Below are positions 1,355 through 62,152 of a stretch of 64,000 nucleotides of DNA, piece by piece. This DNA comes from a virus. Taxonomy: Duplodnaviria; Heunggongvirae; Uroviricota; Caudoviricetes. The stretch is from IMG/VR virus record IMGVR_UViG_3300024344_000001; one strand, 5' to 3'. The notes beneath the pieces were generated by a model that saw only the letters and a list, made by a program, of their open reading frames with translations, was not told the DNA's origin and did not search any database. How positions within the stretch are numbered: position 1 is the first letter of the stretch; each line of letters begins with the position of its first letter. The translations under genes were made by a program, and so were the position numbers.

Positions 1355-1607
1355 TTTTGTAACCACTCTCCATTATATCCATCGCACGATGGATAAAATC
1401 CCATCTTGCGTCTGTAGCATGTTCTACCATAAAATCGATTACTTCATTAACCGCTTCAACAAACTCGCCCTTTAGTGCTAATTCTTCAAGTGGTGTCAAT
1501 CTGTAACCGCTGGGAACAGTAATTTTATACTCACCAGACATGGTTAGAATCTCAAGTTCTTGTATACAGCCCTGTGGGTCTGTAGAAATCTTGTCATAAC
1601 TTGGCAA
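1344..1607 (-). CDS. 87-aa ORF between the exonuclease gene and dnaE-C; possibly a 5' extension of dnaE-C via +1 frameshift at an A5 run
   Basis: ORF ends ..ESGYKNDG* and overlaps dnaE-C ATG-ATG (1349-1354) in the +1 frame; a run of five A (tacAAAAAtgatg) sits at the junction. Confidence 0.3.
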   Translation of the reverse strand: MPSYDKISTDPQGCIQELEILTMSGEYKITVPSGYRLTPLEELALKGEFVEAVNEVIDFMVEHATDARWDFIHRAMDIMESGYKNDG

Positions 1608-2188
1608 GTGTGCTTAACGTCAACCAACGCATCATGAGCACCCTCGCCGTCAATCCCCATCATTTTCCTAATAGCGTCCATACTGATGGAGGTAACATCA
1701 TGGTCATTCTCCATCCACATATACAAGTTATCCATCATATCGATCTTGAATACCTGACTAAACAGGGCCTGATCATTTCTCTTACTGTCCCACGGACCAT
1801 ATTCTTTACAGATACGGCGGATAATGGGTATGTCATAGTTAATTATATTATATCCTGCTGGAACTGGATTGAAGAATGGTTTACCGCTTGGGTTCATCTT
1901 ATTAACAAACTGTTGGAACTTAGGCCATACATTCTTCAACTTAGGGGCAGCAGCTATTTCCTCCCTAGTCTGCCCTGTTACTTTAAGGGCGTCTGCTTCC
2001 AATGGAGCAAGGTTAGCTGCGACAGCCTTTTCATCATCAGTCTCGGCCCAAATCATAGACTGAAATTCGCCCATAGGTTTCAAAGTTCGCCCGTGTAAAC
2101 CTATAGCAGCAATCTGAGTAGGTTGGCAGGTATCTGGGTCTCTACCGCCAGTTTCAAGGTCAAAACAAACAATATGCCTGGTATGCAT
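1544..2188 (-). CDS. dnaQ: DnaQ-like DEDDh 3'-5' exonuclease (proofreading epsilon-like)
   Basis: Exo I motif MHTRHIVCFDLETGG; Exo III-like GAHDALVDV; lies between the two dnaE fragments. Confidence 0.75.
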   Translation of the reverse strand: MHTRHIVCFDLETGGRDPDTCQPTQIAAIGLHGRTLKPMGEFQSMIWAETDDEKAVAANLAPLEADALKVTGQTREEIAAAPKLKNVWPKFQQFVNKMNPSGKPFFNPVPAGYNIINYDIPIIRRICKEYGPWDSKRNDQALFSQVFKIDMMDNLYMWMENDHDVTSISMDAIRKMMGIDGEGAHDALVDVKHTCQVMTRFLQTHRAVYKNLRF

Positions 2189-2191
2189 AAT

Positions 2192-3856
2192 TTACTTTCC
2201 GTTGCTTAGCGGAGTTAGAACGCCGCCGTGTCTTTCTTGTACAAGTTCTTCCATCAACATTACCTTATCCAAGTGTGTTAATCCAAGAACGTCAAACTTT
2301 TCTTGCCCAAGATCACCAAGATCGCCCATTTCCAATGCCGCCTTAACGTTACCATCTTCGTCTGTAAGCATAGGGCATACATCTGCTAGACAGTCTCTAG
2401 AGATTACTACACCCGCCGCGTGCTTACCATGTGACTTAAAGGTTCCCTCAAGGTCAATAGCCTGCTGGAAATATGGGGCAAAAACACCTTCTAACTTACC
2501 ATCATAGTTAATATGACAGTAATCAATCAACTCTTTCTTGTTATGTAAGAGCGACCAACGAATAATGGATGGGTCATCCATAGATGAAAGCTGGTCAGAG
2601 ATCAAAGATTCATCAGGAATGAACTTGGTCATTTCATTCATTTCACCAAAACCACAAGCCTCATTGACTCTCAGAACTTCCTTAAGGGCAGATTTACCCT
2701 GTAGTCGTCCAAAAGTAATCACCTGACCTACCTTGTCATGGCCGTAGGTATCCTTGATGTAGTCAATAATTTCATCACGCTTGCTGGCTGGCACGTCCAT
2801 ATCAATATCTGGTAGGGAGATATGGTCACCTGTATTACGTCCAGCGTTGTAGAAACGCTCGAAGATTAAACCGTATTCAATAGGGTCAATGGTTGTCACC
2901 CCTAGTAAATACGAAATTAAACAGCCTGCCGCAGAGCCTCGTCCGGGTCCAGTAAGCCACCCGTTATCTCTACAAAATCTGATGATATCCCAAACGATTA
3001 AAAAGTAACCGAATAGGTCAGCGTCCTTAATAACGGTGAATTCATGTTCGAATCTTTTACCGTACAGGTCTCTACCTTCACCCTCAATCCTACTAGTACC
3101 ACCCAGTTCTCTCTTCCACCCCTCACGACATAGTTCCTTAAGGAATTCTTCCTCAGTCTCGCCGTTTGGTGTAGAGAAGTTAGGTAGAATAGGGCCGCTT
3201 AGAATGTTGTATTCTTCGCACTTATCAAAGATCTCCTGGAGAGAATTATGATTCTCTTCGTCCAGCATGTGCATCGCCGTTACTTGATCGTTATCTCTCA
3301 CATACCAGTCATCAAACTCAAAGAATTTGTGTAGACCATCAGGAACGGCGGTATTACCCTTCTTGATCTTAGGGAGAGTGGTTTTTAGACTAGTACATAG
3401 TAATATGCGATGTAGTTCAGCCTGTTCTTTCTCTACGTAGTATGAGGAACGCAGTAATTCCGTCTTGACATAGAAATCATCACCGGAGATTGGTGAGTCG
3501 GCCTCATAGTCTCCTACAGAAATAAGGTTTCCCCTAGCACAACGCTCACGTAGGACGTGGTTGTCTACCTTTCCATCAACAATCGACGATACGATCTTAA
3601 TTAGATCGAACCAACCATCCTTATTTTTGGCAAACAACTTGAATTTCTCAAATGAACAACCGATGATCGGTCTAATACCAGCTTTCTGACAGGCTTTGAA
3701 GAACTGCACGGAACCTGAAATAGAGTGATAGTCAGCAATACCACAGGCGGGGAATTCACATTTCGCACACTTTTTAGCAAGTTCGGCTGGTTTTGAGAAC
3801 CCTCTTAGAAGAGAGTAGTGAGTGAAGTTACATAGGGGAAACCACATATTAGTCAA
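2192..3856 (-). CDS. dnaE: DNA polymerase III alpha (DnaE) N-terminal fragment (PHP + palm/fingers), ends with TAA
   Basis: PHP-domain start MWFPLCNFTHYSLL; catalytic region GYFLIVWDIIRFCRDNGWLTGPGRGSAAGCLISYLLGVTTIDPIEYGLIFERFYN; ends ..KFDVLGLTHLDK..TPLSNGK, matching E. coli DnaE ~res 560-610. Confidence 0.85.
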   Translation of the reverse strand: MTNMWFPLCNFTHYSLLRGFSKPAELAKKCAKCEFPACGIADYHSISGSVQFFKACQKAGIRPIIGCSFEKFKLFAKNKDGWFDLIKIVSSIVDGKVDNHVLRERCARGNLISVGDYEADSPISGDDFYVKTELLRSSYYVEKEQAELHRILLCTSLKTTLPKIKKGNTAVPDGLHKFFEFDDWYVRDNDQVTAMHMLDEENHNSLQEIFDKCEEYNILSGPILPNFSTPNGETEEEFLKELCREGWKRELGGTSRIEGEGRDLYGKRFEHEFTVIKDADLFGYFLIVWDIIRFCRDNGWLTGPGRGSAAGCLISYLLGVTTIDPIEYGLIFERFYNAGRNTGDHISLPDIDMDVPASKRDEIIDYIKDTYGHDKVGQVITFGRLQGKSALKEVLRVNEACGFGEMNEMTKFIPDESLISDQLSSMDDPSIIRWSLLHNKKELIDYCHINYDGKLEGVFAPYFQQAIDLEGTFKSHGKHAAGVVISRDCLADVCPMLTDEDGNVKAALEMGDLGDLGQEKFDVLGLTHLDKVMLMEELVQERHGGVLTPLSNGK

Positions 3857-10380: not shown

Positions 10381-11510
10381 AGTGGAATTGCCTGAATTTC
10401 ATCATATAGCAGTTCACCGATTTCCGGGTTATCATCCATCCACCTTACAAGGTTAAGGATGCCCTGGAATTGGAATAGTTTACCTACGGCGTCTTCGTCC
10501 GATGGATCTACATCGTTACGCTTACAAACCTTTTTCATTTTAGGTGTGTCTTTGTTATCGATAGCTGCTGTAATAGTGTACCATGAACCAGCGGGTTTAA
10601 TGAAACCAAGTTCTGCGGCCTGATGTACGATTTCCTTATTCTTATCGACACCAACACCCCAACGTAACCAACCTTCAGCTTTAGATCCAGGCTTACCGCC
10701 CGCACCAGAAGTCTTAATCTTCCAATACAACTGCTGACCTATTGATTCCTTACCTTGTTCCCAAGGGGAGAATCCACCTAGATCAAGGATGGTGCTAGCC
10801 TGGTATTGCAACTGGTTACCACCGTCCATAACAGTCTTTGCTGCTCGTGGGGAGATCGCACCAGTATTAGCAATCTTATGGGTAATGAAGATAAGGATTG
10901 CTCCAGTTCTCGGAACGTCTCCACTTGTTCTCTTGAGAAACGATCCAAGTAGCTTAGGTAACCCCGCTCTAATACCCGATCTGATTTCACCTGCTAGTTC
11001 TTCTGCTGGTAACATGTTAGATGTACTATCGACAATCAATACAAGGTTAGGAACCTGTCTAACCAATAGTTCCGCCGTATTAAGATACATTTCAGCGGAG
11101 ATCTCAAGTTGTTCCGGTGTAGGTCCAATGATATTCATTGACTTATGATCAAGGTTAGTTATCTGGCATAGGTGATGCTCAGTCAATCTACCTTCAGTAT
11201 CGAAGTAGTAAATATTCTTGTCATGGTATTTCTGGCAATGTGCTGCGAAACTTAGTGCGGATACTGACTTACCAGCTTTAGGTGGGCCTGAGATAACATT
11301 GACTGTTCCTTCTCTAAGACCGCCCCCAAGTAAATCATCTAGTGCTGGGGAGAACGGAATAACCTTCAATTCCTGTAACTGATCAAGAACTTCATGACCT
11401 TCACTTGCGATCTTTCCAATCTTTTGATTGATTGTGTTTAGTAGTGGGTTATCATACTTAGTCTTGACTTTGTTGATGTTTATCTTTGGTTTCTTCTTGT
11501 CGTCCGCCAT
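10377..11510 (-). CDS. RecA-superfamily recombinase/ATPase (UvsX/Sak4/RadA-like)
   Basis: Walker A VISGPPKAGKSVSAL; Walker B LVLIVDSTSNM. Confidence 0.65.
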   Translation of the reverse strand: MADDKKKPKININKVKTKYDNPLLNTINQKIGKIASEGHEVLDQLQELKVIPFSPALDDLLGGGLREGTVNVISGPPKAGKSVSALSFAAHCQKYHDKNIYYFDTEGRLTEHHLCQITNLDHKSMNIIGPTPEQLEISAEMYLNTAELLVRQVPNLVLIVDSTSNMLPAEELAGEIRSGIRAGLPKLLGSFLKRTSGDVPRTGAILIFITHKIANTGAISPRAAKTVMDGGNQLQYQASTILDLGGFSPWEQGKESIGQQLYWKIKTSGAGGKPGSKAEGWLRWGVGVDKNKEIVHQAAELGFIKPAGSWYTITAAIDNKDTPKMKKVCKRNDVDPSDEDAVGKLFQFQGILNLVRWMDDNPEIGELLYDEIQAIPL

Positions 11511-32838: not shown

Positions 32839-33951
32839 TCAACCCTTAATGTTGATAATTGGTTTAACGTGATGGGTAACGTCTACCAATTCCTTCTGTT
32901 GTTCCATGACAGCAAAAATATCCTTGTAGGCGAACGGCGATTCGTCCAGGGTATCCTTATCTACCTTAGCACGAACACCCTCCATAGTCTTCTTGAAATC
33001 CTGAACATCTAATTCTCTCTTAGCGGCCTTACGTCCTAGGACGCGACCAGCACCGTGAGAAGAAGAGTGCATGGATTCTTCGTTCCCTTTACCTACTACT
33101 ATGAACGAACCGTCTCTCATGTTACCAGGAATTACGCCTTTCATCCCTTTTTCAGCATGAGTGGCACCCTTACGGTGAATCCAGCGGCCATCTTTCAATT
33201 CCGCATGATTATGATTACGGTTGATAAACGAATTCGAATCTGAAGACACACCTCCCAATCTACGGTCTAATACCGCTACTACAGCTTCAATCATAGCTGC
33301 ACGGTTAGCCAAGGCATAAGTAAGAGCATAGTTTAGGTCCACGATGTAATCCTGACCCAACTGTGAGTCTACATCAAGAGCACCATCTAGCCCCTCACCC
33401 TTAGCGATTTTCATATACTCACCCGCAATACCATGACCTAGGCCACGAGATCCTGAGTGAATAACGATCCAAATTTTATCATGCTCGTCATAGCCGATTT
33501 CAATGAAGTGGTTTCCACCACCCAATGTACCTAACTGTCTACGGGCATTACGGCGACCGTACATTTCTTCAGCAATCGCCGTATGTGGAAGTTTTTCGTC
33601 TACCCACACCTTGTCTTCCTTATGAGTATTAAAACCAACTGGAATATCACGGTAGATGTTCTGAAATAGGTAGTCGGCTCTTGCTTCAACGTCAGTTCTA
33701 TCGGCGTCTGTGCATATGCTGCTCATCCCGCAGCCTATATCGAAACCAACCCAAGCGGGGTATATTACCTCTCTTGTTGCGAATACTGAGCCAATAGGTG
33801 CATCATATCCAGTATGGGCGTCAGGCATCATAGCCCCTTGCTCAACAAATGGAGAATCCATACAATTATCAAACTGCTCCATAGCGGAGTCTTCAACAAC
33901 TTCTGCAAATATCTTTGATGGTTTCATTTCTCTCTTCTCCCTCTTATTCAC
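32839..33951 (-). CDS. rtcB: RtcB RNA 3'-phosphate/5'-OH ligase
   Basis: Motifs MPDAHTGYD, NRNHNHAE, HSSSHGAGR. Confidence 0.85.
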   Translation of the reverse strand: MNKREKREMKPSKIFAEVVEDSAMEQFDNCMDSPFVEQGAMMPDAHTGYDAPIGSVFATREVIYPAWVGFDIGCGMSSICTDADRTDVEARADYLFQNIYRDIPVGFNTHKEDKVWVDEKLPHTAIAEEMYGRRNARRQLGTLGGGNHFIEIGYDEHDKIWIVIHSGSRGLGHGIAGEYMKIAKGEGLDGALDVDSQLGQDYIVDLNYALTYALANRAAMIEAVVAVLDRRLGGVSSDSNSFINRNHNHAELKDGRWIHRKGATHAEKGMKGVIPGNMRDGSFIVVGKGNEESMHSSSHGAGRVLGRKAAKRELDVQDFKKTMEGVRAKVDKDTLDESPFAYKDIFAVMEQQKELVDVTHHVKPIINIKG

Positions 33952-34448: not shown

Positions 34449-34506
34449 TTTTCCTTATTTCCCATGTAAACTGCATATGTGCCGCTGGTTCCCACCCAAA
34501 TGGAAT

Positions 34507-34531
34507 TGGAGACGACGGGATTCGAACCCGT
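34507..34531 (-). pseudogene. tRNA 3'-fragment (acceptor 3' strand + T-arm) with no matching 5' half
   Basis: ggagacg + acggg-attcgaa-cccgt; no complementary 5' acceptor found within 150 nt. Confidence 0.3.
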
Positions 34532-34847
34532 GTGTTGATTAGCAATCATAATAACTTCTACGTGTGTAGGTATGTGCCACATACCAGAGGATAGTCTTCG
34601 CCAGGCGGGTCTATCATACCTTGTCCCTCATGGGCACGGCGATTAAGTCGCTACTCTCGTCTGTTATCCGATATATTCTACGATTGGGTAAAAAGGCTCG
34701 CAGAGAAGCCCGCAGCTTACGCTGCCATTAGTACAGATGTTTTTGCATCTATTGTTCGATCTATTTTTTAACTGGCCCTTAGATCAACCAGTACACGCGA
34801 TCATTACTCTCTACTATCAGTCGATTCCAAAACGTCCCCGTTATTTT

Positions 34848-35744: not shown

Positions 35745-35784
35745 TACACGTAAAAAAAACCCGCCCCAAAAGGACGGGCTAAGG

Positions 35785-35874
35785 GCAGCTAAACGAGAAT
35801 CGAACCCGCATAACCCCGTTAGGGGTCTCCTGATTCACAGTCAGGCCCAGCAAACCAATATCTGGCTTTAACTG
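35785..35874 (-). tRNA. tRNA, type-II-like; anticodon loop reads GUG
   Basis: Acceptor cagctaa/ttaactg; extra hairpin cccc-gtta-gggg; anticodon stem cctga/tcagg, loop codon CAC; D stem ccag/ctgg. Confidence 0.4.
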
Positions 35875-37446: not shown

Positions 37447-37533
37447 TCAGAGAGAAGGGAATCGAACCCTCATACAGTCTTACGACACTCCTGCTTCCAA
37501 GGCAGGCGGCATACCAATATTGCCCACTCTCTG
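37447..37533 (-). tRNA. tRNA with Pro (UGG) anticodon arm and ~18-nt extra segment between T and anticodon arms
   Basis: Acceptor cagagag/ctctctg perfect; D stem ggca/tgcc; anticodon stem cctgc/gcagg, loop codon CCA; extra acagtcttacgacact. Confidence 0.45.
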
Positions 37534-37611: not shown

Positions 37612-37681
37612 TCGCCCCTGAAGGAATTAAACCCCCGCCTCTTCCACCGAAGGAAGTGTGCTTACATTACACTATAGGGCG
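37612..37681 (-). tRNA. tRNA, isotype unresolved
   Basis: Acceptor cgcccct/tagggcg; T-loop aattaaa. Confidence 0.35.
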
Positions 37682-38746: not shown

Positions 38747-38941
38747 CTAAAGATCCTCACCCATTGCCTGTTCCCAAGCATCATACAGTCTCTCTTCAAG
38801 ATCCTCTATTTTAGATTCCAGCTTATCAATCTTGGATTGTGCATGTTCATGCCTTACCCATTCACCTTCATCATCTGGTCTCGCAACGACACCAGCATGA
38901 GTATCCCAAAAAAGTGTATATCTTTTGTCTTCATAACTCAT
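38747..38941 (-). CDS. hypothetical acidic protein
   Basis: ORF. Confidence 0.35.
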   Translation of the reverse strand: MSYEDKRYTLFWDTHAGVVARPDDEGEWVRHEHAQSKIDKLESKIEDLEERLYDAWEQAMGEDL

Positions 38942-39183
38942 AATAGTGAGTATCTCCTAAGCAGTTTCCTCTTATCCCCATGCAGTGGCTGAGTAGCCAC
39001 CGCAGTGATCTCATCACTGAAGATATCATCCCGCCACACTACGAAATCAATTTCGTTATCGATCAGTTCCCTGATGACCTTTCGAAGTTTCGCCTCATTC
39101 TTTACCCGAAGGTAAACCAAAGATGGATGATTGTCCTCTTTGAATTTTCGTGCAGATTCTAATGCTGCATGACCGCCCTGCAC
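38938..39183 (-). CDS. Pth2-family peptidyl-tRNA hydrolase-like protein
   Basis: GGHAAL ~ Pth2 CSHAAL; VYLRVKNEAKL..VIREL..FVVWRDD ~ Pth2 VVLKV..EEL..ALIRDAG. Confidence 0.5.
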   Translation of the reverse strand: MQGGHAALESARKFKEDNHPSLVYLRVKNEAKLRKVIRELIDNEIDFVVWRDDIFSDEITAVATQPLHGDKRKLLRRYSLL

Positions 39184-39234
39184 AGCCTTCTGGGAGTCAG
39201 GGATATCATTCCGAACAAAGACATAGGTATGACC

Positions 39235-39669
39235 CTATGGATCGTTCAGTCTCTCACAAAATTTCTTTCCACGCCTGTTGACTTGTTTGTACTTGATCTT
39301 GAAGCTGGTTGATTCAATACCGCCGAACATTTCTGCATTCGCATGAAGTTCAGCTAGTGATGCAAGTAGTAGGGTTGAAAGTTGTTCGTTGGTCAGTGTT
39401 GACTCTTCAACATCTTTCGCTTTGCAGGTATGGAAGAACATATCGTTTCTGATAAGTTCACCAACCTCTTCACTACCACCATTCTCTAACCAGTAGTTCG
39501 CAGAAGCATTTACATGATCTGGATAATGGACTTTTTCTTCGTCATCATAGTATCTTACGAGGTGTTTACCGCAATCGTGATATACAGTATACTGCCTCAG
39601 TGTTTCAATGTCTGGTAAGTTTGAGACCAGTTGCGAGTGATACTCCAACAACCAATCCGGGATCTTCAT
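39235..39669 (-). CDS. HD-domain protein (putative phosphohydrolase)
   Basis: TVYHDCGKH ... HYPDH. Confidence 0.4.
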   Translation of the reverse strand: MKIPDWLLEYHSQLVSNLPDIETLRQYTVYHDCGKHLVRYYDDEEKVHYPDHVNASANYWLENGGSEEVGELIRNDMFFHTCKAKDVEESTLTNEQLSTLLLASLAELHANAEMFGGIESTSFKIKYKQVNRRGKKFCERLNDP

Positions 39670-39800
39670 CCCTTCCCAATCCCCACTTATGATTCTTTGC
39701 AGGTATTCCCAAACAAGTTCGCCGTGTTTCAGAAATTCGTCGTGAGTCTACAACATCAAAATTTTCCTTTGTAAAATTTCTCGAAAGTACTTAGTAACCA

Positions 39801-39873
39801 AGAAGACAATGGGACTCGAACCCATGACACACGAGGTTAGAACTCGCTGCTCTGCCAACTGAGCTATGTCTTC
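39801..39873 (-). tRNA. amber suppressor tRNA (anticodon CUA)
   Basis: Acceptor gaagaca/tgtcttc 7/7; T-arm atggg-actcgaa-cccat; D stem gctc/gagc; anticodon stem acgag/ctcgc; plus-strand loop gtTAGaa gives RNA loop UUCUAAC. Confidence 0.6.
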
Positions 39874-39892
39874 ATAACGGCGTTAGCCGAAG

Positions 39893-39968
39893 TAGCGACG
39901 GTGGGAGTCGAACCCACAAACAAATAGTTTTAAGCTATTCAGGTATACCGAGTTCCCGTCACGTCGCC
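39893..39968 (-). tRNA. tRNA, anticodon UAA (Leu-like) in a short-variable-arm scaffold
   Basis: T-arm gtggg-agtcgaa-cccac; anticodon stem aatag/ctatt, loop codon TTA. Confidence 0.45.
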
Positions 39969-41655: not shown

Positions 41656-41905
41656 ATGTTGTATGTACGAAAGTGGGTAGGATTACCAGTATAAGCTATT
41701 ACGCCCCTTGCAGCAGGGTTAATATACTGACCTACATCATCCGATTAGTCAGATCGAATGGAAGAGTGACTAATTCTTCTTCTGCCCCTAAACACTTCGA
41801 TAGGTCTTACTAATTGCCTGTCTTACGCACCAAGACTAACTAACTGCTTGACACTTGTATAAAGGAACAGTGCTCTTTTCAGCCACCACTTTGTAATAAG
41901 CACCC

Positions 41906-41990
41906 CAGGGAGGATTCGAACCTCCACCCCCCGACTAAGGGGAGACTCTTAGTTAACAGCTAAGTACAATACCATTCTGTCACCGAGGTA
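41906..41990 (-). tRNA. tRNA-like, unresolved
   Basis: T-arm ggagg-attcgaa-cctcc; no clean acceptor pairing found. Confidence 0.3.
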
Positions 41991-46800: not shown

Positions 46801-46890
46801 GTAGGAGTGCAGGGAATCGAACCCTGTTCTCGGATTTATCAGATCCTAAACCGCTTATAAAACGGCTGCCGCACCATTTGGCCTCACTCC
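46801..46890 (-). tRNA. tRNA, type-II length; anticodon loop reads UAU (or Ile GAU if the first hairpin is the anticodon arm)
   Basis: Acceptor aggagtg/cactccc; T-arm caggg-aatcgaa-ccctg; hairpin ggat-ttatcag-atcc; second stem accgc/acggc with loop ttataaa. Confidence 0.4.
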
Positions 46891-46904
46891 CGTCTCATGT
46901 ATTG

Positions 46905-50569: not shown

Positions 50570-50908
50570 TTATCTATCTAGTAGTTCTTTCACCTTAGCT
50601 TCAGCGGCATCCTTACGGATCTTAAAGGCGTCATACCAAGTGTCTTGTTCTCTCTTCAGGCAATCAATATTCTTGTATGCGTCCAGTAGAGGATCATCTG
50701 TGTTGAGATTACATTTATTGCAATACCAACCATCATTACTTCCGACCACATGTACTCCATGTGAGTATCCTACACCAACGCCGCCGTTCTTTTCACAGTT
50801 CCAGCAAACATCTTTACCGCAACATAGACACTTATGATAACAGTTTTCCTCATTATCAGTACAGAAATCACAAACGTTTATTTCAATAGTGGATGTTTTA
50901 GTTGTCAT
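50570..50908 (-). CDS. Cys-rich (multi CxxC) protein
   Basis: CDFC..C..C.CCGKDVCWNCE...CNKCN. Confidence 0.4.
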   Translation of the reverse strand: MTTKTSTIEINVCDFCTDNEENCYHKCLCCGKDVCWNCEKNGGVGVGYSHGVHVVGSNDGWYCNKCNLNTDDPLLDAYKNIDCLKREQDTWYDAFKIRKDAAEAKVKELLDR

Positions 50909-50920
50909 TTTCCGCCCTCT

Positions 50921-51133
50921 CTAAATTAGGCTTGACCCACATTGTTCTGTAAAATGAAAATGACAGTAAGGCTTACCTTCTCCTGTACCAGTAGGTTGGC
51001 CCTTACATCCTTCGATAGAACACGTTTGTGTCTTTAACCAAATCGACCAATCGTCCATCTTCTTCTGAAATTCTTTGTATTCATCAGACTTTAGATATTC
51101 GCCGTATTCTTCTTCATATTCTTCGTTAGTCAT
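50921..51133 (-). CDS. small Cys-containing acidic protein
   Basis: ORF. Confidence 0.35.
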   Translation of the reverse strand: MTNEEYEEEYGEYLKSDEYKEFQKKMDDWSIWLKTQTCSIEGCKGQPTGTGEGKPYCHFHFTEQCGSSLI

Positions 51134-51376: not shown

Positions 51377-51604
51377 CTAGACTTTTTTCTTCCACGTTGG
51401 AAAACCTTTGTTTGAGTGAAGATCTGCCAGTCTATTAGTACCAAAACAGCCTTCACATACATCAAACTTTCGATCAATGGGAATAAGAGTGCCAGCAGGT
51501 ATTCTTAACGTAACCTTTACCCAATTATTAGCAATATACAACCCATTTTCAGGAGATATCTTGCCACATCCGTCACATCCGTCACATTGTTTAACATCAG
51601 CCAT
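51377..51604 (-). CDS. small Cys-rich protein
   Basis: CDGCDGCG...CEGC. Confidence 0.35.
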   Translation of the reverse strand: MADVKQCDGCDGCGKISPENGLYIANNWVKVTLRIPAGTLIPIDRKFDVCEGCFGTNRLADLHSNKGFPTWKKKV

Positions 51605-51613
51605 GTTTGTTTC

Positions 51614-52333
51614 CTAAGTATAACGCCTTGGCGTAAAACCACCCTGAGTACATCCTGGAATAGGAAGCATCAAGTCTCCACCTTGGTCACACTCGTCACC
51701 AAAGTAATTCTGTACTTCAACATACCAGTTTTTATCATTTGAAATTACCTTACTAGGCTCAATCAAAACATGACAACCACCGCGAGTCTCAAAGATAGTA
51801 GTAGCATAGCTACCCAGCAACCAATGCATAGACTTGCGAATGTTTACTAGCCTTTCCTCACGAGATATTTCCGCAGGAAAATCGATGTCAAAGTGTACGT
51901 GACATGTTCGACTCTTACACTTGTGGACTTGCCTATCCGCCCACCTGGCTGGGTTAAACCTATAGTTAGGATCGCCCCATCCCTTTTGCATGTGGTCAAC
52001 TAGATCCTTAACTGTAGCAGAAGTCGCCGCTTTAGTATCACGAGGATTAGTTGTGATATAGACGACGAGTCCCTCGTCGTTAACTACTTGACCCTTTTTA
52101 GTCTTATAGCATCCAATAGGACATTCTAGCTGATGTAGTTTCTCTAACATTCTTTCCTTATTAGTAGTAAAACGGCGAATCTCCACCGTGTCACTAGAAC
52201 TTAGCTCAGGCATATACTTCTTGCGGGCCTGTAGAACAATGTAGAACGTTTCATGATCTTCATTGATCTCTGGAAGCCACGCAATGAAGTTTTGAAGTTC
52301 CATTGAGTCACGAATTATTTTGTGGTGGCTCAT
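51614..52333 (-). CDS. archaeo-eukaryotic primase (AEP)/PrimPol-like protein, tentative
   Basis: Motif I CHVHFDIDF (hhDhD); motif II TRGGCHVLIE (sGxGxH); motif III GDLMLPIPGCT (D..h.hPGs). Confidence 0.4.
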   Translation of the reverse strand: MSHHKIIRDSMELQNFIAWLPEINEDHETFYIVLQARKKYMPELSSSDTVEIRRFTTNKERMLEKLHQLECPIGCYKTKKGQVVNDEGLVVYITTNPRDTKAATSATVKDLVDHMQKGWGDPNYRFNPARWADRQVHKCKSRTCHVHFDIDFPAEISREERLVNIRKSMHWLLGSYATTIFETRGGCHVLIEPSKVISNDKNWYVEVQNYFGDECDQGGDLMLPIPGCTQGGFTPRRYT

Positions 52334-53784: not shown

Positions 53785-55245
53785 TTAGTGCGTTCTTGAG
53801 AAACGAGAAGGATCAGCCAGTCCAGTGTCCAGTCTATCCGCATGGGTTACATACTCCCCACGGTCATCCTTACAGACTACAACGCCCCCATTATTAAGCA
53901 AACGACTCCCCTTTGCTTCATTACATGATTTGCATAACATTTGCAAATTATTGTACTCGGTACTACCGCCCAAACTATGAGGATGAATATGATCTCCCGC
54001 CATTTCATGGAAATCAAACGTTTGATTGCAAGATGGACAGATTTTATCTTGTTCGTGATACCTCATCTGCTTATCGTATTCAGAAAAGTATCTATGAGGA
54101 TCTTTTACTTCAAGAGAGACAGAACCACTAGCGTTAGGATGTGAAGTAATGAAGTCAAACAATATGGAATGTCTAATTCTTCTAAAGTTCTGACCATTAG
54201 CCGCATGGTGAGCATGACCGCTATAACGATAGAACTCATCTACAAATCCATGCTCTGTGATTTTATCCATCTGAGGCAGACTTTGAGTAAAGTAGACTAG
54301 GGCTTCAGAAAACTCTGTTGTATGAATTTCATAGCCTCTCTCATATAGATCCGCAATTAGACATAATATGCTTAAAAGGGCGTTCTTTTTCTTGAAATGT
54401 AAAGACCTAAGACCGCCACAGAGGGAGGCCACTTCTCTAAGAGTTTGAAAAATTCTATCAACCTTTTTGGCAATCTCATACCATTTAATTGTGGTGTCAT
54501 TAGCGTAGTTTTGGAAAAATGGCTCTAATTCATAATTGTTTGGATGATCGTGCTTAATCATAAAACTAATTAAGCAACCCAAAATCTTACCATCATCCTG
54601 TTGTCTAATTCCCTTTTTACCGACTGTAGACTCCGAGAAGATATCTGCATACTTACCATCTAAGGTAGTAAACGGCATAATTACTTCCTGCACCAAAGGT
54701 GATCTTCTAAATTGAGATCTTAGTAGTTCCTGTGGATTTACTTTGCAGCTAAGATTCAAGGACTGAAACAAATAGTCTTTTAGTTCGTCAATATCATCTT
54801 CACTTAAACCTGCTGTTTCATAAATAACAGTGCATAGTTCATAACGTCTAAACACATTTTTCTCGCTAGATGTGAGATCTTCCCATTTTTTACCATCAAG
54901 ATGACTATCAAACAAATACGGTATAGCCGCTTTGTTTTGCTTCAATCTAAGTTCATTATTTATGAACTTTTTTAGAGTCTCAGATCTTTGCTGACCATCA
55001 ATAGACTCATACCATACTTTTACTTCTACTCCATTAGCATCTTCTTCTGATCTTTCAAGCATATAGATTTTAGGAATATCTACTCCTAGATAGACAGAGT
55101 TTATGAAACTAACCTCATAGGCATATGACCACACAAAATCCCTTTGGTGTTTACCCCCTAACTGGATCTCTCCCTCATTTATTTGCCTAACAATATCACT
55201 AACAGACACAACCTTTGTCTTAGAATTCCATCTTTTTGTATTCAT
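53785..55245 (-). CDS. DUF262 (ParB/GmrS-like) + C-terminal HNH nuclease fusion (GmrSD/BrxU-type architecture)
   Basis: DUF262 motifs LGGKHQRDFVWSYAYEVSFINSVYLGVDIPKIYM and IDGQQRSETL; C-terminal HNH CPSCNQTFDFHEMAGDHIHPHSLGGSTEYNNLQMLCKSCN. Confidence 0.7.
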   Translation of the reverse strand: MNTKRWNSKTKVVSVSDIVRQINEGEIQLGGKHQRDFVWSYAYEVSFINSVYLGVDIPKIYMLERSEEDANGVEVKVWYESIDGQQRSETLKKFINNELRLKQNKAAIPYLFDSHLDGKKWEDLTSSEKNVFRRYELCTVIYETAGLSEDDIDELKDYLFQSLNLSCKVNPQELLRSQFRRSPLVQEVIMPFTTLDGKYADIFSESTVGKKGIRQQDDGKILGCLISFMIKHDHPNNYELEPFFQNYANDTTIKWYEIAKKVDRIFQTLREVASLCGGLRSLHFKKKNALLSILCLIADLYERGYEIHTTEFSEALVYFTQSLPQMDKITEHGFVDEFYRYSGHAHHAANGQNFRRIRHSILFDFITSHPNASGSVSLEVKDPHRYFSEYDKQMRYHEQDKICPSCNQTFDFHEMAGDHIHPHSLGGSTEYNNLQMLCKSCNEAKGSRLLNNGGVVVCKDDRGEYVTHADRLDTGLADPSRFSRTH

Positions 55246-56178: not shown

Positions 56179-56521
56179 TTTTAGTAATGATCAGACGAAA
56201 GTCTGTATCCCAGATAGCCTGCTCAATCACAGTAGGAATAGAGCGGAACAACTTAGAAATCTTGTTGTTGTTATTATTCCACTGTTTTCCATCATGAATT
56301 TCAAAGTCACCATTCGCAACCCAGTCATAATCTATACCAGAGGTATGCTCACAGGGATCGCCGTCATTAAAACCAGGGGTCCATCCGATATATGAATACG
56401 AATGATCCTCATGATCGTCAGCCAAAATCTCACGGACTTCAGCTTCAACCTTATCCTTAACTTCGTTCTTGGCTTTAGCAAAAGCTTCATTAAAGTCCGC
56501 TACAGCAGTTTCAACAGACAT
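56141..56521 (-). CDS. small acidic protein, paralog of 56531-56956
   Basis: Shared motif GFNDGDPCEH vs YFNDGDACEY. Confidence 0.4.
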   Translation of the reverse strand: MSVETAVADFNEAFAKAKNEVKDKVEAEVREILADDHEDHSYSYIGWTPGFNDGDPCEHTSGIDYDWVANGDFEIHDGKQWNNNNNKISKLFRSIPTVIEQAIWDTDFRLIITKNGIQKDWYECGY

Positions 56522-56530
56522 AATTACCCC

Positions 56531-56956
56531 CTAGTCGTGGTTGTGATATTCTTCAACGGTAAATCCATCTTTGGAAAGATAGAATTTTGTATGAGAACCG
56601 AAAGTGTCTTCCAACACATCTTCTGGAATAGAATAGATTAGTTCTTCAACCTTCTTGAACCAAGGCTTGTCATAGAAACTAACCCATTCGCCAGTCTCTT
56701 CATCTTCAGCCTCTTCAATAACATAGACACTGTATTCACAAGCATCGCCGTCATTGAAATAAGGGACGTAAGCATTAACCTCAACCGTAAGGTTAATATC
56801 TTCCTGTTCAAACAGTTCTTTAATGGCTGGACTTAGAAGCCTACTAACCTCTTCGCCCAGAATCTTCTTCTGCTTCTCATAAGCTTCGGTAATAGGACCG
56901 ATCTTATCCTTATATGTCTGTACTGCGTCATTGACACTCATTACCGTACTCCACAA
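56531..56956 (-). CDS. small acidic protein, paralog of 56141-56521
   Basis: Shared NDGD.CE motif. Confidence 0.4.
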   Translation of the reverse strand: MWSTVMSVNDAVQTYKDKIGPITEAYEKQKKILGEEVSRLLSPAIKELFEQEDINLTVEVNAYVPYFNDGDACEYSVYVIEEAEDEETGEWVSFYDKPWFKKVEELIYSIPEDVLEDTFGSHTKFYLSKDGFTVEEYHNHD

Positions 56957-58158: not shown

Positions 58159-58186
58159 ATTATACCACGCCGTCCGCCGTTGTCAA
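58159..58186 (-). promoter_or_regulatory. sigma70 consensus promoter (TTGACA-N16-TGGTATAAT)
   Basis: rc: cttgacaacggcggacggcgtggtataatcc. Confidence 0.7.
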
Positions 58187-58363
58187 GTGCTTTTGGGCGA
58201 TTTTTCGGACCAAATCCAGAAATTGGTCGCTGGTCAGCCCTACAAACTCCCCCGTAGATTCAGTCCAGGACTTATCTTCAGGGGGAGTGCTAGGAGCGTG
58301 TGGAGTGCTAGGAGCCTTACGAATATAAGTTTGCCTTGGAGGCTCTGGTTTCTCAGCAGTCAT
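58160..58363 (-). CDS. Pro/Ser/Thr-rich small protein
   Basis: ORF; its 3' end overlaps the promoter. Confidence 0.3.
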   Translation of the reverse strand: MTAEKPEPPRQTYIRKAPSTPHAPSTPPEDKSWTESTGEFVGLTSDQFLDLVRKIAQKHLTTADGVV

Positions 58364-58651
58364 CCAAGAAAAATCAGCCTCGTTAACTCCAGCCGCAGCT
58401 ATAATAACAACTACTGCTAGACAAAGCTAGGCTAATACCTTATGCCTGGTTGTACTCATATCTAAATACTTCCGAGCTATCCTTCTAACGTCCATACCTA
58501 ATCCTTTCCCATGCCCTCTGTGGACAGTATATTACTAGATACAACACTATTAGCACAGATACGGCTAACAACGCAACAGAGTAGTTTCTAACTTCCTTGA
58601 AAGAGAAAGCTAGTCCAAGTAACCCTAATATAATCATGACTGCCCAAACGT

Positions 58652-61780: not shown

Positions 61781-62152
61781 TTACCTCGAAAAGTCTGCGA
61801 AATCTATCTCGCCATCCAGAAACTTATCCAGATTAGCGGTTTTACCCGACCTATGATCCTTCACGGTACCACGCTTGAAGTGGTATGTGCGAACAGTCTG
61901 AGTATTTTTGATTTTGTAATCACGTCTCTGCTTTTTCTTTGCAGCACGTTCCTCTCTTTCAGCTTCCTTCAGTAGACTCTGAATCTTTTTCAGGGCCTTC
62001 TTCTCGTTCCTGTGATAGTTACGACCACAGACCTTGGTACTGATACCAGTAGGTAAATGTGTAACTCTACATCCAGACTCGGTCTTGTTGATATGCTGAC
62101 CGCCTGGACCTTGACATTTTACTTTTTCAATTTTGAGATCTTTTTTGTTCAC
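61781..62152 (-). CDS. arfB: ArfB/YaeJ-like GGQ-motif peptidyl-tRNA hydrolase (alternative ribosome rescue factor)
   Basis: CQGPGGQHINKTESGCRVTHLPTGI; basic C-terminal tail rich in K/R. Confidence 0.7.
   Translation of the reverse strand: MNKKDLKIEKVKCQGPGGQHINKTESGCRVTHLPTGISTKVCGRNYHRNEKKALKKIQSLLKEAEREERAAKKKQRRDYKIKNTQTVRTYHFKRGTVKDHRSGKTANLDKFLDGEIDFADFSR

What the first reader, a model, noticed from the sequence alone, without database searches (positions are those of the whole stretch)
39801..39873. Amber-suppressor tRNA (anticodon CUA) in the tRNA island
A canonical 73-nt cloverleaf folds cleanly: 7/7 acceptor pairs, 5-bp T stem, 4-bp D stem, 5-bp anticodon stem. Its anticodon loop reads UUCUAAC, so it decodes UAG. 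Phage suppressor tRNAs are linked to stop-codon recoding of late genes or to tolerance of host/phage nonsense codons. No in-frame TAG was needed by the genes in this window, which suggests the targets lie elsewhere, likely in late genes.
Basis: seen in the sequence. Interest (0 to 1): 0.7.

Follow-up and report, generated by a model that had tools for sequence, protein, structure and literature searches.

The report
Amber suppressor tRNA with amber-gated neighbour gene
The stop-codon-reading tRNA is real, and the gene right next to it, a tRNA-directed hydrolase, carries that same stop codon as its third codon in this phage and at an equally early position in dozens of other large phages, so the tRNA appears to act as a key that unlocks its neighbour's translation.

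Summary
A canonical 73-nt tRNA with anticodon CUA lies at 39801-39873 on the minus strand. It is the best-scoring tRNA in the window (Rfam 65 bits).

That is wrong. The gene that starts 44 nt downstream of the tRNA (39756-38938, minus strand) reads SD-ATG-TTG-TAG and continues in frame. It has a second TAG at codon 174. Its 272-aa product is an HD phosphohydrolase domain, most like the HD part of CCA-adding enzymes, fused to a PTH2 peptidyl-tRNA hydrolase.

Two relatives (61-69% protein identity) keep both the tRNA and "ATG YTG TAG". The 27 codons after the TAG change mainly at third positions.

Across 60 distinct homologues, mostly from IMG/VR jumbo-phage contigs plus cultured XacN1 and GAP32, the first in-frame stop upstream of the HD motif is TAG in 53. 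Control genes give 21%. In 51 of those 53 an ATG lies 1-12 codons before the TAG. CUA is the commonest anticodon within 5 kb of these genes (55 of 312 tRNAs).

In 102 kb of this roughly 180-kb genome, TAG still ends 20% of crude gene calls. No general recoding is visible. The structural genes were not reached.

Best reading: a suppressor tRNA paired with an amber-gated client gene. The inserted amino acid and the purpose of the gate are unknown.

The parts
39801..39873 (-). Amber suppressor tRNA: anticodon CUA, loop UUCUAAC, discriminator U73, no encoded CCA.
   Evidence: ARAGORN. Rfam RF00005 65.2 bits, E 6.5e-12. Identical copies in L001-L003. Syntenic CUA tRNAs with quite different stem sequences in relatives L015 and L016.
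39892..39968 (-). tRNA-Leu(UAA), 18 nt upstream of the suppressor. Probably part of the same precursor transcript.
   Evidence: ARAGORN. No convincing promoter-like or terminator-like site between the two tRNAs or between the suppressor and the next gene; the one terminator-like hit (39825-39809) is the suppressor's own T arm.
39765..39769 (-). Shine-Dalgarno-like AAGGA, 8 nt before the ATG at 39756.
   Evidence: Read from the sequence. Equivalent AAGGAG / GGAG at the same spacing in L015 and L016.
39748..39756 (-). Leader ATG-TTG-TAG. The start codon is 39756-39754. The first in-frame amber codon (codon 3) is 39750-39748.
   Evidence: 'ATG YTG TAG' is invariant in the window, L015 and L016, while the 24 nt upstream are about 50% different.
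38938..39756 (-). Amber-gated gene: 272 codons plus a TGA stop, encoding an HD domain fused to PTH2 (PHROG 14850). Gene callers split it into 144 aa (39235-39669) and 81 aa (38938-39183).
39670..39747 (-). The 26 codons between TAG#1 and the first possible restart (ATG 39669). They encode THDEFLKHGELVWEYLQRIISGDWEG, including the first conserved His (H11) of the HD domain.
   Evidence: No ATG/GTG/TTG in this stretch. Over the 27 codons after TAG#1 (this stretch plus ATG 39669-39667), differences between relatives fall mainly at third codon positions: 6/4/15, 11/8/15 and 7/8/16. The stretch is homologous to the N-termini of longer homologues.
39235..39237 (-). Second in-frame amber codon (codon 174), at the junction of the HD and PTH2 domains. 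It is specific to this phage.
   Evidence: Homologues have mostly Lys here, otherwise Asn or Asp. The next 17 codons (GHTYVFVRNDIPDSQKA) hold no start codon and match the first strand of PTH2 in homologues.
38980..39225 (-). PTH2 (archaeal/eukaryotic-type peptidyl-tRNA hydrolase) domain, residues 178-259.
58160..58495 (-). Tentative second client: a small membrane-anchored protein with an in-frame TAG at 58429-58427 (MDVRRIARKYLDMSTTRHKVLA*LCLAVVVIIAAAGV...). Gene callers start it at ATG 58363.
   Evidence: A charged N-terminus is followed, directly after the TAG, by a 14-residue hydrophobic run. Only 3 such runs occur in all six frames of the window. No homologue evidence.

Best explanation
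This is a functional amber suppressor tRNA. Its demonstrable client is the gene immediately downstream.

Inferred: the tRNA is probably made from the same transcript as its neighbours. Host enzymes mature it and add CCA, and a host synthetase of unknown specificity charges it. It then competes with release factor 1 at UAG.

Shown: the downstream gene opens with SD-ATG-TTG-UAG.

Inferred: if RF1 wins, only fMet-Leu is released. If the suppressor wins, the ribosome goes on to make an HD phosphohydrolase domain (closest fold: the HD part of class II CCA-adding enzymes). After a second UAG at codon 174 it adds a PTH2 peptidyl-tRNA hydrolase domain. Synthesis of this tRNA-directed enzyme is therefore gated by the activity of the tRNA encoded beside it, an AND gate or feed-forward arrangement. 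The second UAG would set the ratio of HD-only to HD-PTH2 product.

Further inferred: the enzyme recycles peptidyl-tRNA or damaged tRNA 3' ends that arise when stop codons are read through, or it feeds back on the suppressor. Either would keep suppression useful but limited in a genome that still ends a fifth of its genes with TAG.

Shown: the tRNA, the in-frame TAGs, their conservation, the tRNA-gene linkage and the domain folds. Inferred: read-through itself, the inserted amino acid and the purpose of the gate.
For: - The tRNA is real and in register.
- Homologues of 243-345 aa align across both TAGs of the neighbouring gene.
- There is no restart codon for 26 codons after TAG#1 or for 17 codons after TAG#2. 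Both stretches are conserved as protein. The first contains the conserved HG histidine.
- Relatives L015 (69% identity) and L016 (61%) keep the CUA tRNA just upstream, together with SD + ATG-YTG-TAG. Their flanks have diverged.
- In 60 distinct family members the first upstream in-frame stop is TAG in 53, TGA in 5 and TAA in 2. Among 458 control ORFs from the same loci it is TAG in 21% (binomial 8e-29).
- An ATG lies 1-12 codons before the TAG in 51 of 53 gates, against 26 of 96 controls.
- The TAG sits at the N-terminus whichever domain comes first. In PTH2-first versions the next start codon is 116-122 codons downstream.
- No gate TAG is followed by T (0 of 53), against 16 of 92 TAG terminators in controls.
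- CUA is the commonest anticodon within 5 kb of these genes (55 of 312). It is always on the same strand and is sometimes the only tRNA present.
- Cultured phages show the same thing. XacN1 ORF364 reads MK*TIKAM, Xoo-sp13_327 reads MKK*, RsoM2USA_91 reads MKS*, and pT24 reads MK*. GAP32 has an internal TAG with an annotated Sup-tRNA 2.2 kb away.
- The XacN1 authors looked for targets of their CUA tRNAs and found none.
Against: - There is no expression, proteomic or reporter evidence. Read-through is inferred from conservation alone.
- TAG ends 20% of crude gene calls in 102 kb. Efficient suppression would therefore extend many phage proteins, so suppression must be partial or context-dependent.
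- In many family members a conserved Met lies 5-13 codons after the TAG and could serve as a start, so read-through is not strictly required everywhere.
- ME3 and Arash have the tRNA nearby but no TAG in the gene.
- 27 of 60 distinct loci have no CUA tRNA within 5 kb.
- The loci are not phylogenetically independent, so the P values overstate significance.
- The purpose of the gate is conjecture.
- 43% of the genome, including all structural genes, was not seen.
Confidence: 0.7

Rival explanations
1. Code switch for late genes. The suppressor mainly serves to decode TAG-recoded structural and lysis genes elsewhere in the genome, as proposed for crAss-like, Lak and other code-15 phages. On this view the neighbouring gene is just one recoded gene among many.
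For: Suppressor tRNAs are strongly associated with TAG recoding of late genes in gut phages (Borges et al.). 43% of this genome, including all structural genes, was not reached. A possible amber-containing membrane protein exists at 58495-58160.
Against: TAG is not depleted as a terminator: 31 of 158 crude calls in 102 kb. Only one clear read-through gene was found in that 102 kb. In the related loci, treating TAG as sense lengthens ORFs less than treating TGA as sense, in nearly all loci, so there is no sign of general TAG recoding. If TAG were an ordinary sense codon it would be scattered through the gene. Instead it sits at the first 2-13 codons. XacN1 and GAP32 are annotated in the standard code, and no read-through targets were found in XacN1.
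Confidence: 0.15
2. Leader mini-ORF without suppression. The short 'ATG-x-TAG' is an upstream open reading frame that truly terminates. The enzyme is translated by re-initiation at a downstream start, and the nearby tRNA is a coincidence of living in a tRNA island.
For: Many family members have a conserved Met 5-13 codons after the TAG. Gene callers and annotators start the gene there. Two- to twelve-codon leaders resemble regulatory mini-ORFs.
Against: This does not explain why the stop is TAG in 53 of 60 cases. It does not explain why it is always in frame with ATG upstream. In the window, L015 and L016 the next start is 27 codons downstream, beyond the conserved HG histidine. In PTH2-first forms it is 116-122 codons downstream. 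The codons after the TAG evolve as coding sequence. CUA tRNAs are 18% of the neighbouring tRNAs and are sometimes the only tRNA present.
Confidence: 0.1
3. Passenger or general nonsense-tolerance tRNA. The CUA tRNA has no dedicated target. It buffers nonsense mutations or perturbs host termination, and the TAGs in the neighbouring gene are tolerated recent mutations.
For: TAG#2 is lineage-specific. It replaces a mostly-Lys linker position one base change away (AAG to TAG), as expected for a tolerated mutation. The inserted amino acid cannot be predicted, and the CUA tRNAs near these genes are not one lineage.
Against: TAG#1 is conserved in position across relatives whose surrounding DNA has diverged. 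An equivalent early TAG recurs across a family with only 35-50% identity. Chance nonsense mutations would not concentrate at the first codons of one gene family.
Confidence: 0.05

Closest known systems
Suppressor tRNAs of TAG-recoded (code 15) phages: crAss-like, Lak, Garnet and others (Borges et al., 10.1101/2021.08.26.457843; Peters et al., PMC9523058)
   Same: A phage-encoded tRNA with anticodon CUA that should make in-frame UAG readable in a standard-code host. Expression of a phage gene becomes conditional on the tRNA.
   Different: In those phages many genes, mainly structural and lysis genes, carry scattered TAGs. Here TAG still ends about 20% of genes in the 102 kb seen. The only clear client is one enzyme gene beside the tRNA, and its TAG sits at codon 3.
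CUA suppressor tRNAs of standard-code jumbo phages with no known target: XacN1 (PMC5852040), RsoM2USA (PMC8504454), GAP32
   Same: The same kind of tRNA in large phages with big tRNA sets. The same gene family (PHROG 14850) is present in those genomes.
   Different: The XacN1 authors reported no targets. Here the homologous gene is shown to carry an early or internal in-frame TAG in XacN1, Xoo-sp13, RsoM2USA, pT24 and GAP32. The published XacN1 test extended ORFs past their terminal amber codons, so it missed a TAG that lies upstream of the annotated start.
prfB (release factor 2) autoregulation by an early in-frame UGA (own knowledge of the established system)
   Same: An early in-frame stop codon in a translation-factor gene acts as a sensor of the cell's decoding and termination balance at that very codon.
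   Different: prfB is bypassed by a +1 frameshift and senses RF2 itself. Here the bypass would be by a suppressor tRNA. It is not known whether the product acts back on suppression.
Engineered suppressor-tRNA feed-forward loop that removes leaky expression in E. coli (PMC7969014; title and abstract seen)
   Same: A suppressor tRNA and a gene carrying amber codons are expressed together, so that output needs both.
   Different: That system is man-made. This one would be a natural counterpart, and no measurement exists for it.
tRNA-Pyl (the label ARAGORN prints)
   Same: Anticodon CUA.
   Different: It has a canonical cloverleaf: a 5-bp anticodon stem, a 5-nt variable loop, a normal D loop with GG and a TTCGA T loop. 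No pyl genes were seen among the proteins scanned. It is not a pyrrolysine tRNA.

Membership tests
tRNA (Rfam RF00005) | Cloverleaf with 7-bp acceptor stem, D arm, 7-nt anticodon loop with U33 and purine 37, and T arm with a TTCRA loop. | tested here: met
   65.2 bits against a gathering score of 29. ARAGORN drawing. 47 CUA tRNAs from related loci keep 97% of pair cells paired, with 4.15 pair types per pair.
Amber suppressor tRNA | Anticodon CUA at positions 34-36 in the correct register. | tested here: met
   ARAGORN places the anticodon (cta) at position 34. The loop is U-U-C-U-A-A-C.
Amber suppressor tRNA | It is aminoacylated and inserts an amino acid at UAG in vivo. | not testable with these tools
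   Support is indirect only: conserved, coding-like sequence continues through in-frame TAGs in the adjacent gene. Nearest-neighbour comparison with 341 tRNAs gives no consistent isotype. U73, G1-C72 and A3-U70 match no clear identity set (own knowledge).
tRNA-Pyl | 6-bp anticodon stem, 3-nt variable loop, shortened D loop without G18G19, and accompanying pylS/pylBCD genes. | tested here: not met
   5-bp anticodon stem, 5-nt variable loop, canonical D and T loops. The defining features are from own knowledge. No pyl genes were seen among the proteins scanned.
TAG-recoded (genetic code 15) phage | Many genes, especially late genes, are interrupted by in-frame TAG, and gene calls improve under code 15. 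| tested here: inconclusive
   Not met in 102 kb (57% of the genome). Coding fraction is 80% under code 11 and only one clear read-through gene was found. The structural module was not reached.
TAG-recoded (genetic code 15) phage | TAG is depleted as a genuine terminator. | tested here: not met
   TAG ends 31 of 158 crude gene calls (20%).
PTH2 peptidyl-tRNA hydrolase (PF01981) | Sequence match above Pfam's cut-off, and the PTH2 alpha/beta fold. | tested here: met
HD-domain metal-dependent phosphohydrolase | The conserved H...HD...D metal-binding residues in an all-helical HD fold. | tested here: met
Stop-codon-sensing autoregulatory gene (prfB-like logic) | An early in-frame stop whose bypass depends on the activity that the gene product itself controls. 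| not testable with these tools
   The early in-frame TAG is shown. Whether the HD-PTH2 protein changes suppressor or RF1 activity is unknown.

The most novel reading that the evidence does not exclude
The tRNA and its neighbour form a self-contained, horizontally mobile control circuit. An amber codon at the very start of a tRNA-directed hydrolase gene measures the balance between the phage suppressor tRNA and host RF1. The enzyme it releases (HD tRNA-end phosphohydrolase plus PTH2) then acts back on the charged suppressor, or on the peptidyl-tRNAs and stalled ribosomes that suppression creates. The result would be a set, tolerable level of UAG read-through during infection. This would be a natural tRNA-based counterpart of RF2 autoregulation, present in many jumbo phages.
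Probability: 0.25. Interest if true: 0.85.

Novelty: new variant of a known kind. Interest (0 to 1): 0.78.

Why it matters
Phage suppressor tRNAs have so far been explained mainly by wholesale recoding of late genes. For standard-code jumbo phages, the XacN1 authors stated that no target gene could be identified (PMC5852040). This locus points to a concrete, conserved target: one enzyme family whose reading frame opens with an amber codon and which travels with the CUA tRNA.

If read-through is confirmed, three things follow. It would explain why standard-code phages keep suppressor tRNAs. It would show a natural suppressor-dependent translational gate. It would also correct the annotation of a family of roughly 300-700 sequence clusters whose genes are often called truncated or split.

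The idea is directly testable in cultured phages: XacN1, Xoo-sp13, RsoM2USA, pT24 and GAP32.

Tried and rejected
- **Near-identical phages.** Megablast of 36-46 kb against 50,697 phage records found nothing. tblastn with DnaE found only relatives of 33% identity or less. There is no close cultured relative.
- **RtcB as a probe.** Searching IMG/VR with RtcB gave no relatives. An exact 30-nt piece of the tRNA is also absent from IMG/VR.
- **Walking to the late genes.** Look-ups from the window ends and two further steps downstream of window position 1 (and 76/77) reached only SSB, a large glycosyl- and methyl-transferase cluster and small genes.
- **Chimeric query.** Three short proteins joined by GGS linkers did not return their own database entries. 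That query did, however, return the homologues that exposed the read-through.
- **Other TAG-joined gene pairs in the window** (56941-56141, 52333-51377, 51133-50570, 38941-38423). The first three pairs are separate genes whose second member has its own ATG 3-4 codons after the TAG. One pair is tandem paralogues. The fourth has several stops in the gap. None was accepted as read-through.
- **DnaE fragments.** The in-frame neighbours separated by TAA are explained by an inserted exonuclease gene and inteins, not by TAA read-through.
- **Second 245-aa gene in L016**, near its opal suppressor. It is unrelated to the HD family.
- **Predicting the inserted amino acid.** Nearest-neighbour tRNAs give no consistent isotype. 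Internal TAGs in homologues fall in columns dominated by different residues: Lys, Ser and Trp.
- **'ORF gain if TAG is sense' as a recoding detector.** It is noisy on 10-kb loci. I used it only relative to the TGA-sense control.
- **Pyrrolysine reading of ARAGORN's label.** Rejected on structure.

Full report
**1. Is the tRNA there?**

Yes. ARAGORN finds 29 tRNAs and a tmRNA between 28.6 and 53.2 kb, all on the minus strand. One is a 73-nt tRNA at 39801-39873 with anticodon CTA.
- 7/7 acceptor pairs, a 4-bp D stem and a 5-bp anticodon stem with one G-U;
- a 5-nt variable loop and a 5-bp T stem;
- loop UUCUAAC, discriminator U73 and no encoded CCA.

Rfam's tRNA model gives it 65.2 bits (E 6.5e-12), the best tRNA score in the window. 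ARAGORN's label 'tRNA-Pyl' only reflects the anticodon. The canonical arms rule out a pyrrolysine tRNA.

**2. What genome is this?**

- The window has no near match among 50,697 phage records.
- Its large genes are phage replication and nucleotide-metabolism genes: NrdA/B, a split DnaE with an inserted DnaQ-like exonuclease and inteins, DnaB, primase, a UvsX/RecA-like protein, RtcB, and a GmrSD-HNH nuclease.
- Exact-protein look-ups place the window on metagenomic contigs that are 100% identical to it.
- One contig is 138 kb and is circularly permuted relative to the window. The longest contig on record is 179,771 bp. The genome is therefore about 180 kb.
- All genes seen are on one strand.
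- Under the standard code the window is well covered by ORFs.

**3. The unexpected client gene**

I searched with the 144-aa ORF next to the tRNA. The search returned homologues of 243-345 aa, and some carry a PTH2 domain.

The 144-aa ORF (39235-39669) ends in TAG. The same frame stays open to 38938, giving 243 codons. Homologues align straight across the TAG, and no start codon occurs in the first 17 codons after it:
- window: ...RLNDP*GHTYVFVRNDIPDSQKAVQGGHA...RYSLL
- P0121: ...GDDFKGHTYAFVRNDLPDSQKAVQAGHA...RYSLL

The frame also extends upstream to an ATG at 39756, preceded by AAGGA. Its third codon is another TAG: ATG TTG TAG ACT CAC GAC.... The extension encodes ML*THDEFLKHGELVWEYLQRIISGDWEG. 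This matches the N-termini of longer homologues and includes the conserved 'HG' histidine.

The full gene is 39756-38938, minus strand. It has 272 codons, with TAG at codons 3 and 174, and it starts 44 nt after the tRNA.

**4. Conservation in close relatives**

Two relatives carry the same arrangement:
- L015 (69% protein identity): tmRNA, CUA tRNA, a 47-aa ORF, then AAGGAG-N8-ATG CTG TAG ATT CAC GAC.
- L016 (61% protein identity): CUA tRNA, then GGAG-N8/9-ATG TTG TAG ATT AAC GAC.

'ATG YTG TAG' is invariant, while the 24 nt upstream are about half different. In the 27 codons after the TAG, pairwise differences by codon position are 6/4/15, 11/8/15 and 7/8/16. That is the pattern of a translated sequence under purifying selection.

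The next possible start lies 27 codons downstream (ATG in two, TTG in L016), beyond the HG histidine. The three tRNAs have different acceptor stems but keep the cloverleaf and CUA.

**5. Conservation across a wide family**

A profile of the family retrieved 80 IMG/VR loci, mostly from contigs of 100-500 kb. I anchored on the HD[CIVA]GK and FGG..S.SFK motifs and asked which stop codon is met first when walking upstream in frame.

| Measure | HD-family genes | Control ORFs, same loci and strand |
|---|---|---|
| First upstream in-frame stop | TAG 66, TGA 5, TAA 2 (73 loci) | - |
| Same, after removing duplicates | TAG 53, TGA 5, TAA 2 (60 genes) | TAG 21% of 458 (binomial 8e-29) |
| ATG 1-12 codons before that TAG | 51 of 53 | 26 of 96 (Fisher 8e-18) |
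| Base following the TAG | A 36, G 12, C 5, T 0 | A 41, G 18, C 17, T 16 (TAG terminators) |

These P values ignore shared ancestry, but the family is diverse (35-50% identity).

The TAG lies at the N-terminus whichever domain comes first. It sits 57-81 codons before the HD motif in HD-first proteins and 185-194 codons before it in PTH2-first proteins. In several PTH2-first proteins the next start codon is 116-122 codons away. Most genes have a single TAG. If TAG were an ordinary sense codon in these genomes it would be scattered along the gene.

**6. Linkage to CUA tRNAs**

- Within 5 kb of these genes ARAGORN finds 312 tRNAs. 55 of them (18%) have anticodon CTA, the commonest anticodon.
- They are always on the gene's strand, and in several loci the CUA tRNA is the only tRNA.
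- Among 60 distinct loci, 33 have one within 5 kb and 12 within 500 nt.
- The 47 distinct CUA tRNAs (46 from the related loci plus the window's) are not one lineage. They keep 97% of cloverleaf pair cells paired, with about 4 pair types per position.
- Treating TAG as sense lengthens ORFs less than treating TGA as sense in nearly all of these loci, so there is no sign of general TAG recoding around these genes.

**7. Cultured phages**

tblastn finds the family (PHROG 14850, 'unknown function') in 29 phage records. These include GAP32, Serratia BF, Yersinia fHe-Yen9-03/04, Pectobacterium CBB, Erwinia pEa_SNUABM phages, XacN1, Xoo-sp13, XbC2, Stenotrophomonas CM1/RAS14, Tenacibaculum pT24, RsoM2USA, Acinetobacter ME3 and Salmonella Arash.

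- GAP32: the gene is annotated as three fragments around a TAG at codon 47. An annotated Sup-tRNA lies 2.2 kb away.
- XacN1 ORF364 is preceded by ATG AAG TAG (MK*TIKAMK...).
- Xoo-sp13_327 is preceded by MKK* and RsoM2USA_91 by MKS*.
- pT24 is preceded by MK* before a PTH2-first protein.
- ME3 and Arash lack the TAG but have a CUA tRNA 0.5-0.7 kb away.

The XacN1 paper reports two CUA suppressor tRNAs. It states that in-silico read-through of the 18 amber-terminated genes revealed nothing, so no target could be identified (PMC5852040). That test cannot see a TAG lying upstream of an annotated start. The survey of jumbo-phage RNA-repair genes by Iyer and colleagues notes PTH2 but never mentions suppressors or stop codons (PMC7824862). 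Seven full-text searches found no description of this arrangement.

**8. What the protein is**

- Pfam gives PTH2 above threshold for residues 178-259 and a weak HD match.
- An AlphaFold model of the complete homologue P0134 is confident (pLDDT 92).
- The HD, His and Asp residues are invariant. The HG histidine is present in every aligned sequence that covers that region, except L046, which reads HH there.
- The family has about 309 clusters at E 1e-30 or better and 740 at 1e-10 or better. Its architectures are HD-PTH2, PTH2-HD and HD alone.

The product is most plausibly an enzyme that binds tRNA and acts on its 3' end (phosphohydrolase) and on the peptidyl or aminoacyl ester bond. This is an inference from fold.

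**9. Is the phage recoded?**

I joined the window with flanks from the look-ups into 102,014 bp, 57% of the genome.
- Crude gene calls cover 80% of it under code 11.
- They end in TAA 68 times, TGA 59 times and TAG 31 times.
- A scan for 'ATG, at most 12 codons, stop, long ORF' finds only the HD-PTH2 gene as a TAG gate with no nearby restart.
- One further candidate exists at 58495-58160. A charged N-terminus is followed, right after an in-frame TAG, by a 14-residue hydrophobic run. Only three such runs occur in all six frames of the window. No homologues support it.
- Three TAG-terminated genes are followed in frame by the next gene. Each of those next genes has its own ATG 3-4 codons later, so I do not count them.
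- Walking about 29 kb beyond window position 1 met only SSB, sugar-modification genes and small genes.

Late-gene recoding is neither seen nor excluded.

**10. How it most likely works**

Shown:
- a sound CUA tRNA;
- a neighbouring gene whose frame runs through two TAGs;
- conservation of the early TAG, its ATG and its SD;
- linkage of the gene family with CUA tRNAs;
- the HD and PTH2 folds.

Inferred:
- The tRNA is co-transcribed with its neighbours. No convincing promoter or terminator lies between them.
- It is matured and CCA-tailed by host enzymes and charged by a host synthetase.
- It competes with RF1 at codon 3 of the next gene. Termination there releases only fMet-Leu. Suppression yields the enzyme.
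- The second TAG would split output between HD-only and HD-PTH2 forms.
- An early position for the gate wastes the least protein if suppression fails.
- Read-through-friendly context may also matter. It is established for E. coli that a 3' A favours amber suppression and a 3' U favours termination (own knowledge). That agrees with A in 36 of 53 gates and T in none.

Co-expression of a suppressor with an amber-bearing gene is the logic of an engineered feed-forward 'leak dampener' (PMC7969014). An early stop used as a sensor recalls prfB (own knowledge).

Why this enzyme is gated is conjecture. The phage also carries a tmRNA, a GGQ-only release-factor-like protein and RtcB. The gene family stays linked to the tRNA even where the TAG is absent. 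Given that, I favour a role in clearing or limiting the by-products of suppression, namely peptidyl-tRNA and stalled ribosomes, or in tuning the suppressor itself.

**11. Inserted amino acid**

Unknown.
- TAG#1 lies in a leader with no conserved residue.
- TAG#2 aligns mostly with Lys in a variable linker.
- Internal TAGs in other phages fall in columns dominated by Ser (L094) and Trp (GAP32).
- Nearest-neighbour tRNAs give no consistent isotype.
- 32 of the 47 CUA tRNAs have the loop CUCUAAA, one base from the tRNA-Trp loop CUCCAAA (own knowledge). The window's loop is UUCUAAC.

**12. Verdict**

Its key negative statement is wrong, and its proposed targets remain unshown.

The tRNA itself is a known kind of object. 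The conserved pairing with an amber-gated HD/PTH2 gene appears not to have been described. It answers an explicit open question for standard-code jumbo phages and can be tested in cultured phages.

Noticed in passing
34504-34839 (-): Phage-encoded tmRNA (Rfam 76 bits) with tag peptide AKTSVLMAA, inside the tRNA island. Relative L015 has a tmRNA directly abutting its CUA tRNA.
   Followed up: partly
61781-62152 (-) and 32839-33927 (-): A 123-aa protein consisting only of the GGQ peptidyl-hydrolase domain of class I release factors (GPGGQHINKTESG). PF00472 scores 85 bits; matches to the PrfH and ArfB models are below cut-off. It has no codon-recognition domain. The same genome encodes RtcB, which recalls bacterial RtcB2-PrfH ribosome-rescue pairs.
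   Followed up: partly
35783-35874, 46801-46891, 41900-41989, 37447-37533 (all -): tRNA-His, tRNA-Ile(UAU), tRNA-Asn and tRNA-Pro of 87-92 nt have long, paired variable arms. In bacteria such arms are normally confined to Leu, Ser and Tyr tRNAs.
   Followed up: partly
1-3847 (-): The DnaE-type polymerase is split. The N-terminal 551 aa (2192-3847) is followed by a DnaQ-like exonuclease gene (1544-2188). The C-terminal part is interrupted by an HNH intein, and a second intein begins at the window edge.
   Followed up: partly
58160-58495 (-): Possible second amber-containing gene. A charged N-terminus is followed by TAG (58429-58427) and then a 14-residue hydrophobic run in frame. Gene callers start only at ATG 58363. 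No homologues were examined.
   Followed up: partly
56521-56533, 51604-51616, 50908-50923 (-): Three genes end in TAG and are followed, in the same frame and after only 3-4 codons, by the ATG of the next gene. One pair is tandem paralogues. Suppression would fuse them. This may be chance.
   Followed up: partly
39222-39239 (-): A 6-bp hairpin (CATAGG ... CCTATG) contains the second in-frame TAG of the HD-PTH2 gene. Its significance is unknown.
   Followed up: no
37612-37681 (-): Rfam reports an extra tRNA-like match (38.5 bits) that ARAGORN does not call. It lies next to the two tRNA-Pro genes.
   Followed up: no
L016 3013-3085: The relative that shares the CUA tRNA and gated gene also carries a tRNA with anticodon UCA (an opal suppressor) and a separate stand-alone PTH2 gene (10887-11354). 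No TGA-gated gene was found beside the opal suppressor.
   Followed up: partly
L011, L013 and L101 (about 29 kb beyond window position 1): After a few replication-associated genes (SSB), a block of more than 15 kb encodes glycosyltransferases (one carrying a LAGLIDADG insertion), methyltransferases and an epimerase, suggesting elaborate sugar modification. The 331-aa glycosyltransferase has hundreds of 59-77% identical relatives, several of them carried by marine (Tara) sources.
   Followed up: partly
53785-55245 (-): A 486-aa protein combines a GmrSD N-terminal domain with an HNH nuclease. It lies just upstream of the tRNA island.
   Followed up: no
L106 4928-5002 (Salmonella phage Arash): ARAGORN reads a tRNA annotated in GenBank as tRNA-Phe as anticodon CTA. 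It lies about 460 nt downstream of the phage's HD-family gene, which is itself preceded by a small ORF annotated as peptidyl-tRNA hydrolase.
   Followed up: partly
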